A stretch of 64,000 bases of DNA, from positions 29,766,835 to 29,830,834 of the forward strand of contig JARFYF010000051.1 of NCBI GenBank assembly GCA_030265395.1, in the 5' to 3' direction. This document shows, piece by piece, positions 6,001-63,000 of this stretch (the stretch's first letter is position 1; each line of letters opens with the position of its first letter). The DNA comes from Rhina ancylostomus. Lineage: Eukaryota. Made by a program: the position numbers.

Positions 6001-9000
6001 GTGCATTAAATGCAGAAAGTATTTTATTTCAGTTTTCCATTGAATAAAAGACAAATCATCTGGAAAAAGAAAGTACAGAAGATACATTGCGAAGAACCTA
6101 GTGGTTAGGAATAAATGATACTTAGTAACATTTTTCAATTATCACCAACTAATAGTTGCCTAAAAACAATGAGAAGTTAGAAAGTAAAAATCAGCAATGA
6201 GCTGGAAATTCCATTTCATCTTCTACTATCTTTACAGATAGAGCACTTGCACGTCTTTGCAGAAATATAGGAGTACTGTTTAGTTGATCCATTTGCACAT
6301 GTCAGCATTACTTCTTTTGTTTCAGTTGTATATTCTTGGCAGCACTCACAGTTATGCTTCATGTTATTTAGTGTGTAGTCAAACCTAAAATATAACAAGA
6401 TCACAATGGAAGAATTCAGTCAGTGAAATGTATCATCTTACTATATTATATCCACTTTAATTACAAGACAAAATGTAGCAAACTGCAATGGCATCAAGCT
6501 GTTGTGGGAATTATTTCTACAATGCATTAAATATGTAAGAACAAAGTAATTTTAACTAATTAATGATTCATTTAAACAAAAGAATCACAGACTCAAAGTA
6601 AAAGAATAAAAAGAATCCCATCTGTATAAAGTTAGCATTCTATCTTTTCATAAAATTGTATGGGTTTGCATCATTACTGAATAGATATGACTTGGCTCAC
6701 AATTCACACAAAGACTTTTCACAGATTGTCTGGCACCAACCTAGAGATATCACCACTTGCCTTTTGTCTTGCCAGTCACTGGCAGCTGTGATATATGAGA
6801 CCAGATAAGTAAGTTTGGCCATTTCCCTAGATCTTGCTTCCCCCTACCTCAGTCAGGGACACATTGACTGTTTTCTTGGGAAAGTGGGAAGATAGAGCAA
6901 TGTCAAAAGGGGAACACACATCTTCTAGTAAACACCATTCTGGAGTTTTCTATATGGCCATATTGTCTCAGCAACTTTTGTTCTTTGTTAGATACATCAT
7001 TATATTTAACCCATCACAAGATTATTAAATTTACTTACATGGAAAATGAGTTGCATTTTCCTTCACATGAATTCACTTCAACTGCTGCTGTACAATTATC
7101 CTTGGTGATTGTGAGCTGTTTGGGTTGAACCTTACATGCTTCCACTGTTGGAAAAAACATGGAAATTAGGAGAAATCAGAGAATTTCACAATCATTTCAT
7201 GTTATGAAAAGCTATCATTATAAATAAATGGATAGAAGAGTTGAATGAGATGCATGTTTTCCTTCTCTAAAAGAACAAAACATTACTGTTATTGTCTCGA
7301 GATTCAGCAGGTGAAAGCAAATGAGCTCAGAGGATAATAGAATAATGAGAAGTCTGTTCATTGATACTGATATGCAAAACAATTTTATATTATTGTTAGA
7401 ATACAAATTTTTGTTAAGGAGACCAGTCGAGGTGTGGAAATGTCAGTCTATGGTAGGGCAGGACTTCTGACCAGTAATGTGTATCATGAGCCCTGCTGTA
7501 ATTCATTTGGTTGTTCCACAGTGAAATATAATGGGGCCAGATGCATCAGTCCTTTGTAAGATTAATGTAAAAAATTCAATACTAATGCTTTTTTAAAAAA
7601 ATCAGCATGTACAACTGTACTGAGTTCTCTGGAAGAGTATTTATTTCCTTCTTAAGAACACTGCAGATCAAGGAACTGAGTATTCTGGCACATTTAAATT
7701 TTCAAATCAGGTGCCATTACCCTCAGGTGGATCACAGGATTAAAAAATGGATCACTATCTCTGCTCCTTTAAATAAATGCCACTCTGCAGACTGGAAAAC
7801 TTATCATTGTTGGGTCATATGGGAAAATCATTTGGTTAAAGTGGGTCACTTGAAAAAAAGTTTGAAAACCACTGCTCCAGTGAATATTTACATCAGATTC
7901 ATCATCTGACATCACAGTAGGCAAGAAAGTCTAAGCAGTTCACAGTTAAATTCAATACTTCTGAAGTCTGGTCCCTTTTGTGAGATAGGAAGTGCATATT
8001 ATGAAAATGAAGACATTTAGAGCAGGAGAAATTTGAAGTTGTTACACAGTCTGCAGGGAGAATATATTTGTCAATTAAACTGCAGTGCTCAAAATGTAAC
8101 TACTTACGTTTCGAGGGACAGGTATAGCAGCAGTGATATTCATCCCAGTTTTTCTTAGACTAAACACAAAGGAAATATTGAACTGTTACTGTTGTATACA
8201 TATTATTTAAATATCAATTGTAATACATTATTTCATTGTTAAAATATATTTTCATACCGGAGATACACAGAAAATCCAAACTTAGGCAATAATTATAAAT
8301 AAATTATGGTTACATTTTCTCGCATGCCATCCGGATTAACAATATTTTTTCAAACATGTTGTTTTGGAAGATAGTTTTATGAATATTTATTCTTGTTATA
8401 AATGACAGGGATTCAGAAATAAGGAGAGGAAATGCTATTAGAACAATTTCAGTTGTGCAGTTAAATATGGACTGGTTAGGCCAAATGCCCTGTTTTTATG
8501 TTCCAACTTCTAGACATTTATCAGTGCTTAGTTCTGTGCTTCTTTCAGTTGGATTCTGGATTCTGCTGTACATCTTAGTCATTCTATGTAAAATTCTGAT
8601 TGTGTTTTAAAATTCTCCTTCAGTTTTATCTTAATTTTGTACAGCCTGACATATATCATATGCTCAGTAACTTTTAGGTAGATAGTTTTGACCAATTTTA
8701 ACCAAAAAGAATACTGTAGAATGAAACAGTTTTCTGACCAATGTCAGTGGTAAATCTTTCCTGCTGAGAATCATTGTAGAAAATAGCTGTGTGTTTCCAA
8801 TCCCTCCAATACATCTTTGCTCTAACTTAAACAGTGCTTTACAATTACAATATGCTGATTGTGGTTAGCCTTTGCATTCTGTAGTTATATGGCAGCTAAC
8901 ATATTGACATTGGGCAGAATTTACATAAATTGGTGCATGTAAATTGGTGCATTTGTGGCCCAAGGCCACAATTTGGTATTCATTAGCGCCCAGGGCCTCT

Positions 9001-60000: not shown

Positions 60001-63000
60001 CATCACAACGATCATATCACCTTCAATTTTCACGAAAATATGCTCCAAGTTGCCATCTGAACCATGACGAATCTCCACGTTAAATTCTTCTGTGCCACCA
60101 AGGCACTGGCGACTCAGAATATAATTGCATGTTGAAGTAAAATGATAAAATTCATCGGTGTAGGTCCTGACTGCCCCTTGACCCCATATACTGCAGGTAT
60201 CTGAAGAAATATAAAGAAAACAATCCCCTCCATTACAACAGCTCTTTGAACACAATCTTTAGATTACCTTGGTATTGTTTGCAAGATAAATGGATAAAGT
60301 AGTTGAATGCTCATATATCTTGTAATGAGAGACGTATATACTTACGAGTTCCTTCGTCTGCTGTGCTTGAAACTTCCCTTGTAAATCTAAAGGTTTGTGT
60401 GATTGCCGATCCATCCAGATCTAGCAGGAAAATATGTTAAAATTAAATCTGGTTCATACAAAACAAGAGAGTGCAGAAGTTTTTGCCTTCTTGACCAATT
60501 ATTATTCCCTTTCATTTAGTACCCATCTCGCTTGTAGTAATTGTGGCTATAAAGTTCAGTCTCTAATATTTTAATTTTATACAGAATTATCTGTCAGCTA
60601 ACAAAGTGGCATTTACATGGGGAGTATATCATATCAGTATAATTATTAGTTATATTAAGTTTTCATTTAAACTAAACATTTTATGTTGGAGCAATTGACG
60701 CCATTGGATATGAATCGAAGTCCTTGAGTTACTATTTTCTATGCTTCATGCAAAATATTCTTACTTGCTATTGTTGCTAAATATCTTAATGTTTTGCTTT
60801 AACATCTTACATATCTCATGGAAAAGGAAATGTATTACTCTATTTCTTTAGACTGAAATAAATGTGTCAATCATTCTGATACAGAAAAACACAGAGTGGA
60901 CAACCGACCCATTCTAAAATATGAATGGACAACTACCTGTATTTGTAGTATTCAATGACCTGATTAACTGGATATCTATTTAGTTTAAAGTAACAACCAA
61001 AGAAAATATTCCTCTCTTTCATAATAATGTTTCTTCTTAAATATGAACTGGACAAAATCATCCTGATCAATCTCATTCCTATGTATGGGGTATGAAAGAA
61101 GAGGCAAAATCTTGGCTTTAATTTTTCTGAATCATGCAGCTTTTGTACAGATATGGTGTCATGTACCAGATGCATGCTTTGCTTGTGAGACTTAAACCTA
61201 TCAGTGATTTAAGTGCAGGTTCATTGCAGTCTTGGCTGGAGATGTTGTTTGCAGCTTTTAATTTGATATTAGTGACATGGAAGAGACTGGAATACTGTTA
61301 TAGTACTCAAAGACAAGCCTTAAATCACAGTGACTTTGAGGATGTACTTACTCTCTGCTTGGAAATTATTTACTTCAGCCAATAATCTATTGTTATATTT
61401 TCTGGAAGCCACATCACATAAATTTGTAGCAATCCTCAACGGTCAGCTTATTGCAATTTTTGGGTGAATTTTTGTCCATTATTCAACTCATACATGGTGG
61501 GTTAGGTGTTATCTGTATGGAGTTTTGGAGTCAAATATGCCCATAGATGTGGAAAAATTAGTTCACTAGTTTCAATGACTGACCAAGACATTGGGTGGAA
61601 AGGATTGGGATGGAGTGGCAGAAAATATTGGAAATATTCGGTTGACAATGCACAAAGAGAAAACAAAGATCTCACCAGAAGACCTAAGATGGTCGATACA
61701 CCTGCTTTTCATTATGCACAATGAATAAACAGACATGATTTTCAATCTCCCAAACATGAAGTTCTCATGGGACATTGGCCCCATGGATATAATATTTTAC
61801 TTAAGCATTCTAAATGCTAACTTACCATAGCTGTTCGAAGAATAATCACGTTTTACTCGATTGTAGGCAAAAACATCCTCTGCATTAAACAATAATCAGT
61901 TTTAGTCAATTGTTATAGGATATTTAAAGTTTATTATTTATTTAGCACCTAATCGAGGTTACATTTTTGATATCCTCTAGAATATTACAAAGCTTCTGAT
62001 GGTGCAGTCGATAAATAATATGAAACAATATTTGCTGCAATAAAAATAAAGTAAAAGTCAAAAAAATGTACAAATTAAGAAATTCTTCCAACCATGCTTT
62101 TTGCAGTTTCATATCCTTGTATAACTACCAACCAAAAGTGCCCGCTATATCTCTGGCAGCCCTTTATGACAGCAAGGAATACATTGTGAACAAGTTAATT
62201 GTAACATAACAATGAATTAATCAAGAGTTATAATATTACAAATAGTGAACATTAATATATTGATATAATAATGAAATATAATAATATAATAATGAAATAT
62301 AAGCTAAGTTGGTTTCAATAATTTCTTTAAGACATTAATCTCTGAAATGTATTACAAATTAATTTCCTCATTCTGTGTCATGAATGTGTGAACCCCAAGG
62401 ACTGGGGTTTTCTTGTTAAGGTTTCAATCAGGGTAAATGTTCTTTTGATTTAGAAAATACTGATGATGGAACGAATGCATAACTAAGTCTGATCTCTCCA
62501 CCCCATTTTGCAATACAATCTGCAAATCTGTAACAGTTTAGGTACAAAGACATTCATACCAGCATTATTTCAGTAATTTTGTCCAATTTGGTTTGAAAAT
62601 TATCAATGAATTTAAGGTACTGACAATCTATAGCATGCAGATAATAAACAGTAATTCATTGTGTGGATGATCAACCAGATATTGCTGGGTAATTTCCTCG
62701 ACATTGTTAAAAGCCATCCAGATTCCCTTTCAATCTCCCTGGGGAAAATCAAGAAATTACTGAGTTTACATTGTAACCACAGATTATGTAGGGTTGATAA
62801 TTCCTGCTACAAAGATCCTGCCAATGTGCTATTTAATGATCCAGATGTAAAACTCAATGCCCAGAAAAAATTGGCTATTCAAACATGGAGTTCCACTTTG
62901 CTCCGAGTGAGTTGTTCCTCAATCTTTTCTATAAATTCTAAATGTCAGTTTTTCCTTACTTTCTGTATCTGTTTTCTTTCTCCTAATCCTTGTCAAAAAA

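What the first reader, a model, noticed from the sequence alone, without database searches (positions are those of the whole stretch)
6216..61879. MUC19-type mucin that also carries CysD and a full D4 assembly
Seen: D1-D2-D'D3, PTS, a WxxW CysD exon (23496-23869), VWD4-C8-TIL (22368-14505), a single VWC and a CK. Established, from memory: mammalian MUC19/porcine submaxillary mucin has three VWDs, PTS, VWC and CK with no CysD or D4, whereas CysD and D4 typify MUC2/MUC5AC/MUC5B. The D1-D3 motifs, the exon-per-repeat PTS and the single VWC here look MUC19-like. Inference: either an ancestral MUC19 architecture kept in this lineage, or a chimera. Fish MUC19/spiggin relatives may share it, so novelty needs checking.
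[Added by the scan's program, not by the reader: the finding's places include an assembly gap (unread letters, written N; its length is only estimated) at 9706 to 9805, 10968 to 10977, 11277 to 11864, 12416 to 12439, 14797 to 14806, 23937 to 24036. Whether the letters on both sides are continuous or in frame is not known: test that first.]
Basis: partly seen in the sequence, partly recalled or inferred. Interest (0 to 1): 0.75.

Follow-up and report, generated by a model that had tools for sequence, protein, structure and literature searches.

The report
Ray MUC19-clade mucin keeping CysD, D4
This is one ordinary gel-forming mucin gene of a ray or skate that belongs to the MUC19 branch but still carries the CysD and fourth D assembly that mammalian MUC19 has lost, as its already annotated relatives in other sharks, rays and some primitive bony fishes also do.

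Summary
On the minus strand, 6216-61880, lies one colinear mucin gene: D1-D2-D'D3, a PTS built from tandem mini-exons, one CysD exon (23496-23869, exactly as reported), D4N-VWD4-C8-TIL, one VWC and a CK ending at the stop codon 6216-6218. The window is from a cartilaginous fish (batoid), not human.

Of 14 gaps inside the gene, 8 are intronic with no orthologue residues missing. One (55344-55396) hides 18 codons of C8-1, with the frame kept. One (14797-14806) probably hides the first half of TIL4. Four sit in the PTS repeat array, so its copy number is unknown.

Four annotated single proteins (Leucoraja, Hemitrygon, Hypanus, Mustelus) cover both halves. Trees put D1-D3, D4 and CysD each in a MUC19 clade with bony-vertebrate MUC19. 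Grouping D1-D3 with MUC2/5 is rejected (p-AU 0.0007), and so is a D4 borrowed from the elasmobranch MUC2/5 gene (p-AU 0.0002). So the architecture is ancestral, not a chimera.

Novelty is low: a fourth VWD in fish Muc19/spiggin is published (Lang 2016), and the same architecture is already in public annotations. Minor new points are the CysD in this clade and the loss of the GDPH site in this orthogroup.

The parts
61827..61880 (-). Exon 2. It encodes the stretch that follows the signal peptide in the orthologues. It has an acceptor in front and no Met, and it is the first exon found.
   Evidence: aligns with P0061 residues 17-34; sequence context; no exon 1 found upstream.
57242..60421 (-). 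D1: the exon at 60347-60421 and the VWD1 exons 59977-60198, 59395-59517, 57493-57579, 57242-57361. The gap at 58124-58168 is intronic.
   Evidence: Pfam VWD; colinear chain, P0061 residues 35-240.
54309..55487 (-). C8-1 (55287-55487, interrupted by the N gap 55344-55396, which equals 18 unread codons with the frame kept), TIL1 (54988-55110) and E1 (54309-54437).
   Evidence: TIL, E 1.3e-8..
46204..54211 (-). D2: VWD2 exons (54065-54211, several within 53469-53960, 52231-52395), C8-2 (50261-50359, 48251-48382) and TIL2 (46337-46579, 46204-46245). The gap at 51047-51528 is intronic.
   Evidence: Pfam VWD, C8, TIL..
45458..46019 (-). D' (TIL'/E'): exons 45933-46019 and 45458-45601.
   Evidence: TIL, E 2.7e-5..
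37691..45356 (-). D3: VWD3 exons 45219-45356, 43729-43830, 43389-43616, 41036-41275; C8-3 40801-40959; TIL3 39474-39599; E3 37691-37837. The gap at 44194-44293 is intronic.
   Evidence: Pfam; splice sites; 91% identity to P0001.; tree placement of the single exon.
25733..36480 (-). PTS region. The first PTS exon is 36397-36480. It is followed by a tandem array of exon-plus-intron units (about 1.1-1.5 kb) with nine mini-exon copies of 42/51/54 nt in phase 1-1. In the + strand coordinates of repeat family D6 they start at 34894, 32822, 31384, 30293, 29952, 28738, 27935, 27454 and 26268. Four N gaps (36147-36246, 32893-33870, 31284-31383, 27529-27628) lie in the array.
   Evidence: Ser/Thr/Pro-rich frames; repeat families D1-D16; 6 of 9 copies have AG and GT intact, 1 has its donor in a gap, 1 has acceptor CG, 1 has donor AT.
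23496..23869 (-). A single exon encoding the WxxW CysD, a short Thr-rich linker and the 'EECFCDSYPPRK' lead-in to D4. The gap at 23937-24036 lies upstream of the acceptor, in the intron.
   Evidence: Mucin2_WxxW, E 4.3e-15; splice sites; 74% identity to P0061 residues 1642-1764; tree.
17507..22368 (-). D4N module (about 22197-22368) and the VWD4 exons 21859-22091, 18774-18980 and about 17507-17785. The motif reads GKRH where GDPH is usual.
   Evidence: VWD, E 1.1e-14 and 5.5e-5.; tree; motif table.
14505..16217 (-). C8-4 exon (16026-16217) and the second half of TIL4 (14505-14613). The first half of TIL4 is not readable, and the 10-N gap at 14797-14806 lies between the two exons.
   Evidence: C8, E 9.9e-8; TIL partial, profile positions 32-52 of 55..
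8109..14383 (-). A single VWC in three exons: about 14354-14383, 10147-10260 and about 8109-8165. The gaps at 12416-12439, 11277-11864, 10968-10977 and 9706-9805 are intronic.
   Evidence: best match is the Pristis P0011 VWC, 60-65%..
6216..7145 (-). Cystine knot in two exons (7039-7145 and 6219-6383), followed by the stop codon at 6216-6218.
   Evidence: DAN E 1.6e-5, Cys_knot E 2.9e-5..

Best explanation
The window holds most of one protein-coding gene of a batoid (ray or skate). It encodes a secreted, polymer-forming (gel-forming) mucin of the MUC19 branch of the family. The gene keeps the full ancestral layout: D1-D2-D'D3, PTS, CysD, D4 (D4N-VWD4-C8-TIL), one VWC and a CK.

Shown here:
- the domain content and its order on one strand;
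- its orthology group, a 10-member elasmobranch orthogroup inside a larger elasmobranch MUC19-like gene cluster;
- the shared history of the N-terminal, CysD and D4 parts.

Inferred from what is established for MUC2, MUC5B and VWF:
- the CK domain makes disulfide-linked tail-to-tail dimers in the ER;
- the D1-D3 assemblies drive head-to-head disulfide multimerisation through D3 in the late secretory pathway;
- the Ser/Thr/Pro-rich part becomes densely O-glycosylated and binds water;
- the CysD adds non-covalent cross-links.

Two features specific to this gene:
(1) The PTS is encoded by an array of symmetrical phase-1 mini-exons of 14-18 codons. Its length can therefore change by unit duplication or loss, and possibly by alternative splicing.
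(2) The VWD4 of this orthogroup has lost the Asp-Pro of the GDPH motif. The autocatalytic cleavage known for GDPH-bearing VWD domains should therefore not occur in this protein.
For: Domains and order: Pfam on single frames. A colinear chain of exon matches covers residues 17-2302 of the 2304-aa Leucoraja protein P0061.

One gene, not two:
- P0061, P0062, P0063 and P0064 are single annotated proteins. Each matches 19-20 of 20 N-terminal and 9 of 10 C-terminal exon intervals of the window. They are the top scorers for the C-terminal half and among the top ten for the N-terminal half.
- Each has 4 VWD stretches and a CysD directly before D4.
- All 5060 HSPs are on one strand and inside 6183-60590.
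- No stop codon occurs inside an exon match.

MUC19 branch:
- D1-D3 tree, 71 rows by 1158 columns: 27 elasmobranch rows form one clade (SH-aLRT 100) inside a 41-row clade (100) with Polypterus, Erpetoichthys, Polyodon, Megalops, Anguilla, Protopterus and 6 mammalian MUC19. MUC2, MUC5, MUC6, hagfish and lamprey fall outside.
- AU test on 36 rows rejects grouping with MUC2/5 (dlnL 312, p 0.00066).
- The window's D3 exon sits in nested sets of 8 rows (95), 13 rows (99) and 43 rows (100).

Shared history of the parts:
- D4 tree, 45 rows by 401 columns: the 26 MUC19-clade D4s form one clade (100/99), with the same subgroups as the D1-D3 tree and the same pairing of P0061 with the Mobula halves.
- The window's VWD4 exon falls in the 7-row orthogroup set (100).
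- CysD tree: the MUC19-clade CysDs split from the MUC5/MUC2 CysDs at 95, and the window sits with its orthologues at 97.
- A D4 borrowed from the elasmobranch MUC2/5-like gene is rejected (p 0.00022).

PTS mini-exons.

GDPH: the window and 6 of 6 orthogroup members lack Asp-Pro. 15 of 16 other cluster D4s, 3 of 3 bony-fish MUC19-clade D4s and 7 of 7 MUC2 D4s have GDPH.

Papers:
- Asp-Pro cleavage at GDPH: PMC10880436 (abstract start, in the listing).
- D3-mediated polymerisation: PMC6739602 (abstract start, listing).
- CysD function: PMC3195396 (abstract start, listing).
Against: - No transcript or protein evidence was available, so the gene model rests on homology and splice-site consensus.
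- The Met/signal-peptide exon was not found in the window.
- The first half of TIL4 is unread or missing.
- 2 of the 9 PTS mini-exons have a defective splice site.
- The readable PTS is short, and four gaps hide an unknown part of it.
- NCBI splits the apparent orthologue in two in Mobula hypostoma (P0001 and P0058). Rhincodon has only 5'-half-like (P0009) and 3'-half-like (P0060) models.
- The Pristis model P0011 runs D3-PTS-VWC-CK without CysD or D4.
- The D1-D3 tree was built with a quick search. It contains long branches (lungfish, MUC6, hagfish) and only one MUC6 sequence.
- The full-size AU test never finished.
- The loose D4 constraint was not rejected (p 0.136).
- Pfam at E<=1e-5 did not list the CysD in P0061-P0064, although BLASTP shows it.
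- All functional steps (dimerisation, multimerisation, glycosylation, absence of cleavage) are inferred, not tested.
Confidence: 0.85

Rival explanations
1. There are two adjacent genes: a 5' MUC19-like gene (D1-D3 plus PTS) and a separate 3' MUC2-like gene (CysD-D4-VWC-CK).
For: NCBI annotates the Mobula hypostoma relatives as two proteins, P0001 'mucin-19-like' and P0058 'mucin-2-like'. Rhincodon has P0009 and P0060. Four assembly gaps lie between the two halves in the window.
Against: - P0058 begins with the same PTS repeat that P0001 ends with, which fits one gene cut inside the PTS.
- Four species have single models spanning both halves.
- The 3' part starts with a phase-1 internal exon, with no Met or signal peptide before the CysD.
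- The two halves give matching trees.
Confidence: 0.05
2. Assembly chimera: the draft scaffold joins the 5' half of one paralogue of the tandem cluster to the 3' half of another, across the gaps in the PTS array.
For: The elasmobranch cluster has at least four paralogue lineages. The scaffold has 14 gaps in the gene, several of them flush with nearly identical repeat units.
Against: - The window's D3 exon, CysD exon and VWD4 exon each fall in the same orthogroup.
- The nearest relatives come from the same sub-branch in all three: P0001/P0061 for D3, P0061 for CysD, P0058 for VWD4 by path length.
- Per-exon identities are of the same order in both halves.
- A swap between very close sub-paralogues cannot be excluded.
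Confidence: 0.06
3. An evolutionary chimera or a true MUC2/MUC5 family member: the CysD-D4 part was acquired from a MUC2/5-type gene, or the whole gene belongs to MUC2/5.
For: - CysD and D4 are the textbook marks of MUC2/5AC/5B (PMC4948705, passages read).
- NCBI names several relatives mucin-2-like or mucin-5AC-like.
- The loose AU constraint on D4 was not rejected (p 0.136).
- In the D4 tree the MUC19-clade D4s are sister to the MUC5-type D4s.
Against: - D1-D3 with MUC2/5 is rejected.
- D4 with the elasmobranch MUC2/5-like D4s is rejected.
- D4s and CysDs of bony-fish MUC19-clade proteins (Erpetoichthys, Polypterus, Megalops, Anguilla) group with the elasmobranch ones.
- The elasmobranchs' own mucin-2-like proteins lie on contigs of other lengths than the cluster.
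Confidence: 0.03
4. A decaying copy (pseudogene) of the cluster.
For: Exon 1 was not found. Half of TIL4 was not found. 2 of the 9 PTS mini-exons have broken splice sites.
Against: There is no in-frame stop or frameshift in any of the matched exons. Cysteine-rich exons are 50-94% identical to orthologues. The missing pieces coincide with a gap or with the edge of the window.
Confidence: 0.05

Closest known systems
Predicted full-length elasmobranch proteins already in public annotation: P0061 'mucin-2-like isoform X6' (Leucoraja erinacea, 2304 aa), P0062 (Hemitrygon akajei, 2856 aa), P0063 'mucin-2-like' (Hypanus sabinus, 2506 aa), P0064 (Mustelus asterias, 3084 aa)
   Same: They are in the same orthogroup and have the same order of parts: D1-D3, PTS, one CysD directly before D4, one VWC, CK. 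They show the same loss of Asp-Pro at the GDPH position. Per-exon identities to the window are 37-92%.
   Different: They come from other species. Their PTS lengths differ, and they are machine predictions. The window's copy lacks a readable exon 1 and the first half of TIL4.
Mammalian MUC19 / porcine submaxillary mucin
   Same: Same clade for D1-D3. The D3 exon is 57-59% identical. Single VWC-CK tail (recalled for MUC19, not tested here).
   Different: Mammalian Muc19 lacks the fourth VWD (PMC4948705, passages read). No CysD was detected in the eight mammalian MUC19 models examined, which are partial models. The window's gene has both.
Fish Muc19/spiggin proteins with a fourth VWD (Lang et al. 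2016)
   Same: They are MUC19-clade proteins with a PTS and a fourth VWD (PMC4948705, section 'Evolution of Muc19', read). Here, Megalops P0147, Anguilla P0260 and Erpetoichthys P0170 carry a D4 that groups with the elasmobranch D4s.
   Different: The passages I read do not mention a CysD in this clade. The bony-fish D4s keep GDPH. Stickleback spiggins themselves were not in my data set.
MUC2 / MUC5AC / MUC5B
   Same: Same overall architecture (three N-terminal D assemblies, PTS with CysD, D4, VWC, CK) and presumably the same way of polymerising.
   Different: They form a different clade for D1-D3, D4 and CysD. They have several CysDs and VWCs and one large PTS exon (recalled). GDPH is present in all 7 MUC2 D4s examined.
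Chicken Muc13 (exon-per-repeat PTS)
   Same: The PTS is encoded by many exons, with one repeat unit per exon (PMC1552070, passages read).
   Different: It is a transmembrane SEA-domain mucin and is unrelated in its other domains.

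Membership tests
Gel-forming (polymeric, secreted) mucins | Three N-terminal VWD-C8-TIL assemblies (D1, D2, D'D3) | tested here: met
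   Pfam hits on single frames. Colinear chain against P0061 residues 35-1199. 18 codons of C8-1 are unread in a gap.
Gel-forming (polymeric, secreted) mucins | Central Pro/Thr/Ser-rich (PTS) domain | tested here: met
   Ser/Thr/Pro-rich frames. Nine mini-exons in a tandem array. Total length is unknown because of four gaps.
Gel-forming (polymeric, secreted) mucins | C-terminal cystine knot | tested here: met
   Cys_knot and DAN hits at 7038-7175 and 6219-6419. 69-77% identity to the P0061 CK.
Gel-forming (polymeric, secreted) mucins | Signal peptide / secretion | tested here: inconclusive
   The orthologues start with a hydrophobic N-terminus, but no Met/signal-peptide exon was found in 61881-64000.
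Gel-forming (polymeric, secreted) mucins | Disulfide-linked polymers and dense O-glycosylation | not testable with these tools
   Needs protein biochemistry.
MUC19 orthology group (MUC19/spiggin clade) | D1-D3 groups with MUC19 rather than MUC2, MUC5 or MUC6 in a phylogeny | tested here: met
   (41-row clade, SH-aLRT 100). (AU p 0.00066 against MUC2/5). (the window's D3 exon inside the chondrichthyan clade). Whole-length placement used orthologues as stand-ins, because window exons were not joined. Only one MUC6 row was in the tree.
   The window has no other gene. The only Pfam hit outside the mucin is an RVT_1 fragment, and there are no HSPs outside the gene. Annotated eukaryote genomes are not among the collections offered.
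MUC19 orthology group (MUC19/spiggin clade) | Mammalian-type architecture: no fourth VWD, no CysD | tested here: not met
   CysD and D4 are present. This feature defines mammalian Muc19 only. Lang 2016 already notes spiggins with a fourth VWD.
MUC2 / MUC5AC / MUC5B group | CysD within or next to the PTS, and a D4 assembly | tested here: met
MUC2 / MUC5AC / MUC5B group | D1-D3 and D4 group with MUC2/MUC5 in phylogenies | tested here: not met
   A loose D4 constraint was not rejected (p 0.136).
MUC2 / MUC5AC / MUC5B group | Location in the MUC6-MUC2-MUC5AC-MUC5B cluster | not testable with these tools
   Indirect only. In Leucoraja, Pristis, Rhinoraja and Chiloscyllium plagiosum, the mucin-2-like proteins of the MUC2/5 clade are reported on contigs of other lengths than the MUC19-like cluster members.
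GDPH-cleaved VWD domains | Gly-Asp-Pro-His at the start of the VWD | tested here: not met
   The window reads GKRH. 6 of 6 orthologues also lack Asp-Pro.

The most novel reading that the evidence does not exclude
Cartilaginous fishes have expanded the MUC19 branch into a tandem family of at least four full-architecture gel-forming mucins. This family, rather than MUC2/MUC5, would supply much of their mucus. CysD and D4 were therefore present in the MUC19 gene of the last common ancestor of jawed vertebrates and were lost later on the way to mammals. Within the family, the window's orthogroup has switched off the GDPH self-cleavage in D4, which would change how its polymers are stabilised or cross-linked.
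Probability: 0.3. Interest if true: 0.5.

Novelty: new member of a known kind. Interest (0 to 1): 0.3.

Why it matters
It tidies the history of the gel-forming mucins. All three modules (D1-D3, CysD, D4) of the MUC19 branch trace back together to before the split of cartilaginous and bony fishes. The short mammalian MUC19 is therefore a derived, reduced form.

It also shows that automatic names in elasmobranch genomes (mucin-19-like, mucin-2-like, mucin-6-like, mucin-5AC-like) are scattered over one clade, and that some genes are cut in two at the PTS. That matters for anyone counting mucin genes.

The loss of the GDPH site in one orthogroup, and the PTS built from symmetrical mini-exons, give simple testable handles on polymer stability and on length variation. 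None of this is a new kind of system.

Tried and rejected
- Plus strand: 110 frames of at least 60 aa were scanned with Pfam. The only hit was an RVT_1 fragment at 63029-63484.
- Exon 1: pattern and hydrophobicity scans of 61881-64000 found nothing.
- First half of TIL4: not found by Cys-rich frame listing or by pattern search.
- Pfam on P0061-P0064 at E<=1e-5 did not list Mucin2_WxxW. BLASTP showed the CysD clearly, so I treat the Pfam miss as a filtering effect.
- PDB comparison of the D3 exon gave VWF, FCGBP, MUC5B, MUC5AC and MUC2 at 93-112 bits in multi-domain chains. It could not discriminate, because no MUC19 structure was among the matches.
- Full-size AU test (71 rows by 1158 columns, mixture model): four calls (63-66) never finished. 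I replaced it with a 36-row LG+G4 test.
- The AU test of the loose D4 constraint was not significant.
- Of the 150 unnamed representatives, 13 were already named, and I looked up names for 30 more. I used only sequences with a non-human organism name.
- 23 fragmentary or redundant rows were dropped before the D1-D3 tree (listed in the full report).
- I built no joined spliced model of the window's exons. All searches and trees used single exons or annotated orthologues.
- The prokaryote genome-contig scan, structure prediction, complex prediction, the Atlas and Rfam were not used, because none bears on the question.
Figure S1 of Lang 2016 (Muc19 synteny) and its online domain drawings may already show CysD or D4 in fish Muc19.

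Full report
**What the window is.** The window has 37% G+C, a CpG observed/expected ratio of 0.19 and 15 runs of N, which fits a draft vertebrate assembly. The 80-aa D3 exon (41036-41275, minus strand) found 57 proteins of 141-2000 aa. The best is a 'mucin-19-like' protein of the ray Mobula hypostoma (P0001, 91% identity), followed by other sharks, rays and chimaera. Mammalian MUC19 models score 57-59%. The window is therefore from a cartilaginous fish, most likely a batoid. It is not human. I did not try to name the species.

**Check of the observation.** I scanned all 372 minus-strand stop-to-stop frames of at least 38 aa against Pfam one at a time. They give, in gene order:
- VWD1, TIL1
- VWD2, C8-2, TIL2
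- TIL', VWD3, C8-3
- then about 13 kb without Pfam hits
- Mucin2_WxxW (23466-23906, E 4.3e-15)
- VWD4 (E 1.1e-14, with a second exon), C8-4, a partial TIL4
- Cys_knot/DAN in two exons

The stop codon is at 6216-6218. Pfam missed the VWC because it is split into three small exons (about 14354-14383, 10147-10260, about 8109-8165). These align with the single VWC of the orthologues. On the plus strand, 110 frames of at least 60 aa gave only a reverse-transcriptase fragment at 63029-63484. All 5060 tblastn HSPs from 163 stored mucin-family proteins lie on the minus strand between 6183 and 60590. There is therefore one mucin gene in the window and no trace of a second.

**Gaps.** A colinear chain of exon matches covers residues 17-2302 of the 2304-aa Leucoraja protein P0061.
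- Eight gaps lie between consecutive exons with no orthologue residues unaccounted for: 58124-58168, 51047-51528, 44194-44293, 23937-24036, 12416-12439, 11277-11864, 10968-10977 and 9706-9805.
- 55344-55396 lies inside the C8-1 exon. The 18 X in the translation equal the 18 residues that the orthologue P0001 has there, and the frame continues.
- 14797-14806 lies between the C8-4 exon and the second-half TIL4 exon. The 23-26 residues of the first half of TIL4 are in no readable frame there, so 'full D4' cannot be read completely.
- Four gaps (36147-36246, 32893-33870, 31284-31383, 27529-27628) lie in the PTS array.

No gap was filled or looked up.

The piece at 61827-61880 has an acceptor in front and no Met, so it is exon 2. 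A Met/signal-peptide exon was not found in 61881-64000.

**The PTS.** The stretch from about 25.5 to 35 kb is a tandem array of exon-plus-intron units with a period of 1.1-1.5 kb (16 direct-repeat families). Family D6 is the mini-exon itself. It has nine copies of 42, 51 or 54 nt, all in phase 1-1, each encoding a Thr/Ser-rich unit. Six copies have AG and GT intact, one has its donor inside a gap, one has CG for the acceptor and one has AT for the donor. Two copies (31384-31454 and 32822-32892) are 71/71 identical and both touch a gap, which points to collapsed repeat units. So the 'exon-per-repeat PTS' is real, but its length is unknown. The only published case of this layout that I read is chicken Muc13 (PMC1552070, passages read).

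**One gene or two.**
- The VWD4 exon alone found three proteins. The best is P0058, a 948-aa Mobula hypostoma 'mucin-2-like' protein that begins with the same PTS repeat with which P0001 ends. Both are reported on a contig of the same length.
- A search with the D4-CK part of P0058 among proteins of 1660-4740 aa gave 104 hits. Among them are four single models: P0061 (Leucoraja), P0062 (Hemitrygon), P0063 (Hypanus) and P0064 (Mustelus).
- Mapped onto 30 exon intervals of the window, each of the four hits 19-20 of 20 N-terminal and 9 of 10 C-terminal intervals. They are the best scorers for the C-terminal half and among the top ten for the N-terminal half.
- Each has four VWD stretches and a CysD immediately before the 'EECFCDS.PPRK' lead-in to D4. 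P0061 is 74% identical to the window's whole exon.

The two-gene annotation in Mobula, and the half-length models in Rhincodon, thus look like models cut inside the PTS.

**Which mucin.** For whole-length trees the annotated orthologues stand in, and single window exons were placed separately. Only sequences with a non-human organism name were used. Names for 30 unnamed representatives from the exhaustive search were looked up. That look-up supplied MUC19 (rat, kangaroo rat, desman, pika, lungfish, paddlefish, reedfish), MUC5B/5AC, elasmobranch mucin-2, hagfish and MUC6 (wagtail, swallow).

*D1-D3 tree.* It has 71 rows by 1158 columns, built with an IQ-TREE quick search under LG+C20 PMSF, rooted on VWF. 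Before building I dropped 23 fragmentary or redundant rows: P0048, P0035, P0047, P0041, P0316, P0022, P0165, P0044, P0081, P0077, P0328, P0087, P0157, P0019, P0032, P0023, P0002, P0003, P0078, P0008, P0017, P0053 and P0027.
- The 27 elasmobranch rows form one clade (SH-aLRT 100).
- They sit inside a 41-row clade (100) with Polypterus, Erpetoichthys, Polyodon, Megalops, Anguilla, Protopterus and six mammalian MUC19.
- MUC2, the MUC5 group (which contains the elasmobranchs' own mucin-2-like proteins), MUC6, hagfish and lamprey are outside.
- The stand-ins for the window form a 10-row orthogroup (100).
- On a 36-row subset under LG+G4, forcing the elasmobranch cluster to group with MUC2/MUC5 costs 312 log-likelihood units (p-AU 0.00066). 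The same test at full size never finished.
- The window's D3 exon alone falls in nested sets of 8 rows (95), 13 rows (99) and 43 rows (100), all chondrichthyan.

*Ancestral or chimera.*
- The D4 tree has 45 rows by 401 columns, built with a careful search. It gives one clade (100/99) of the 23 elasmobranch D4s plus Erpetoichthys, Anguilla and Megalops. Lamprey is its sister, and the MUC5-type and MUC2 D4s are outside. The internal subgroups are the same as in the D1-D3 tree, and P0061 pairs with the Mobula 3' half just as it paired with the Mobula 5' half.
- The window's VWD4 exon falls in the 7-row orthogroup set (100).
- The CysD tree has 67 rows by 96 columns and is weakly resolved. It splits the MUC19-clade CysDs (45 elasmobranch, Polypterus, Erpetoichthys and the window) from 19 MUC5/MUC2 CysDs at 95. 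The window sits with P0061, P0004, P0062 and P0063 at 97.
- Forcing the cluster's D4s to group with the elasmobranch MUC2/5-like D4s is rejected (dlnL 79, p-AU 0.00022).
- Forcing them to group with all MUC2/5 D4s, which leaves the three long-branched bony-fish D4s outside, is not rejected (dlnL 18.5, p 0.136).

Taken together, the three modules share one history. The layout is inherited, not assembled from two families.

**What is already known.**
- Lang et al. 2016 (PMC4948705, passages read) state that Muc6 and mammalian Muc19 lack the fourth VWD. They also state that some spiggins have a PTS together with a fourth VWD, that Callorhinchus has three Muc19 paralogues, and that CysD characterises MUC2/MUC5.
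- Kawahara and Nishida 2007 (PMC2180178, passages read) show spiggin-Muc19 orthology by synteny.
- Searches for 'mucin, elasmobranch, MUC19' (4 papers) and 'spiggin, MUC19, CysD' (24 papers holding at least two of the three terms) showed no paper describing this family in sharks or rays, or a CysD in the MUC19 clade.
- Supplementary files, which I could not open, and the authors' online domain drawings may show it.

The gene itself is already present as machine annotation in several species.

**A side result.** At the start of VWD4 the window reads GKRH. The six orthogroup members read GRKH, GNDH, GGRH (twice), GQEH and GNRH. By contrast, 15 of 16 other cluster D4s (the remaining one is GEPH), 3 of 3 bony-fish MUC19-clade D4s and 7 of 7 MUC2 D4s read GDPH. 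GDPH is the site of hydrolytic Asp-Pro cleavage in many VWD domains (PMC10880436, abstract start seen). This orthogroup should therefore not be cleaved there. That is an inference.

**How it most likely works.** These steps are inferred from the family and were not tested here:
- CK-mediated dimerisation.
- D1-D3-driven disulfide multimerisation through D3 (PMC6739602 and PMC7599080, listing and abstract starts only).
- O-glycosylated PTS.
- CysD cross-links (PMC3195396, abstract start only).
- A PTS whose length is set by the number of symmetrical mini-exons.

The many isoforms that NCBI lists for relatives fit variable use of such exons but do not prove it. For example, cluster sizes are 16 for P0061 and 49 for P0064, and reedfish isoform numbers go up to X49.

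**Verdict.** Novelty is low: this is a further member of a known kind, already annotated in relatives. Two small points, the CysD in the MUC19 clade and the loss of GDPH in one orthogroup, are ones I did not find in print.

Noticed in passing
window 63029-63484 (+): A reverse-transcriptase (RVT_1) fragment, E 5.4e-10. It is a retroelement remnant upstream of the mucin gene and the only non-mucin Pfam hit in the window.
   Followed up: no
window 21859-22089 (-): VWD4 reads GKRH where GDPH is usual. All six orthogroup members also lack Asp-Pro, while the paralogues, the bony-fish MUC19-clade D4s and MUC2 keep it.
   Followed up: yes
window 31384-31454 and 32822-32892: Two PTS mini-exon copies are 71/71 identical and each touches an N gap. 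A third copy (27454-27524) also lies beside a gap. The gaps look like collapsed repeat units.
   Followed up: partly
window 30293-30363 and 26268-26338: Two of the nine PTS mini-exon copies have a defective splice site (acceptor CG, donor AT). They may be skipped or dead units.
   Followed up: partly
related proteins P0061, P0001/P0058 versus P0004, P0005, P0011, P0062, P0063: Inside the orthogroup, Leucoraja pairs with Mobula hypostoma, while Rhinoraja, Narcine, Pristis, Hypanus and Hemitrygon form the other branch. This holds in both the D1-D3 and D4 trees. It does not follow the species relationships and suggests a duplication within batoids.
   Followed up: partly
related proteins P0001 and P0058 (Mobula hypostoma); P0009 and P0060 (Rhincodon typus): The public annotation seems to cut one gene in two inside the PTS. 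The 5' half is named mucin-19-like and the 3' half mucin-2-like. Across the clade the names also include mucin-6-like, mucin-5AC-like and uncharacterized.
   Followed up: partly
related protein P0011 (Pristis pectinata, 1177 aa): This close relative's model runs D'D3-PTS-VWC-CK with no CysD or D4. It could be skipped exons in the prediction, an isoform, or a real loss.
   Followed up: no
related proteins P0260 (Anguilla rostrata 'mucin-2-like') and P0147 (Megalops 'mucin-19-like'): Both sit in the MUC19 clade in the D1-D3 and D4 trees and have a D4 with GDPH. The eel protein's name is therefore misleading.
   Followed up: partly
window 27641-27847, 30000-30137, 30373-30570, 31438-31647 (-): Similar open frames recur in the introns of the PTS units. 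They are part of the repeated unit (families D8 and D11) and have no Pfam match, so they are probably not coding.
   Followed up: no
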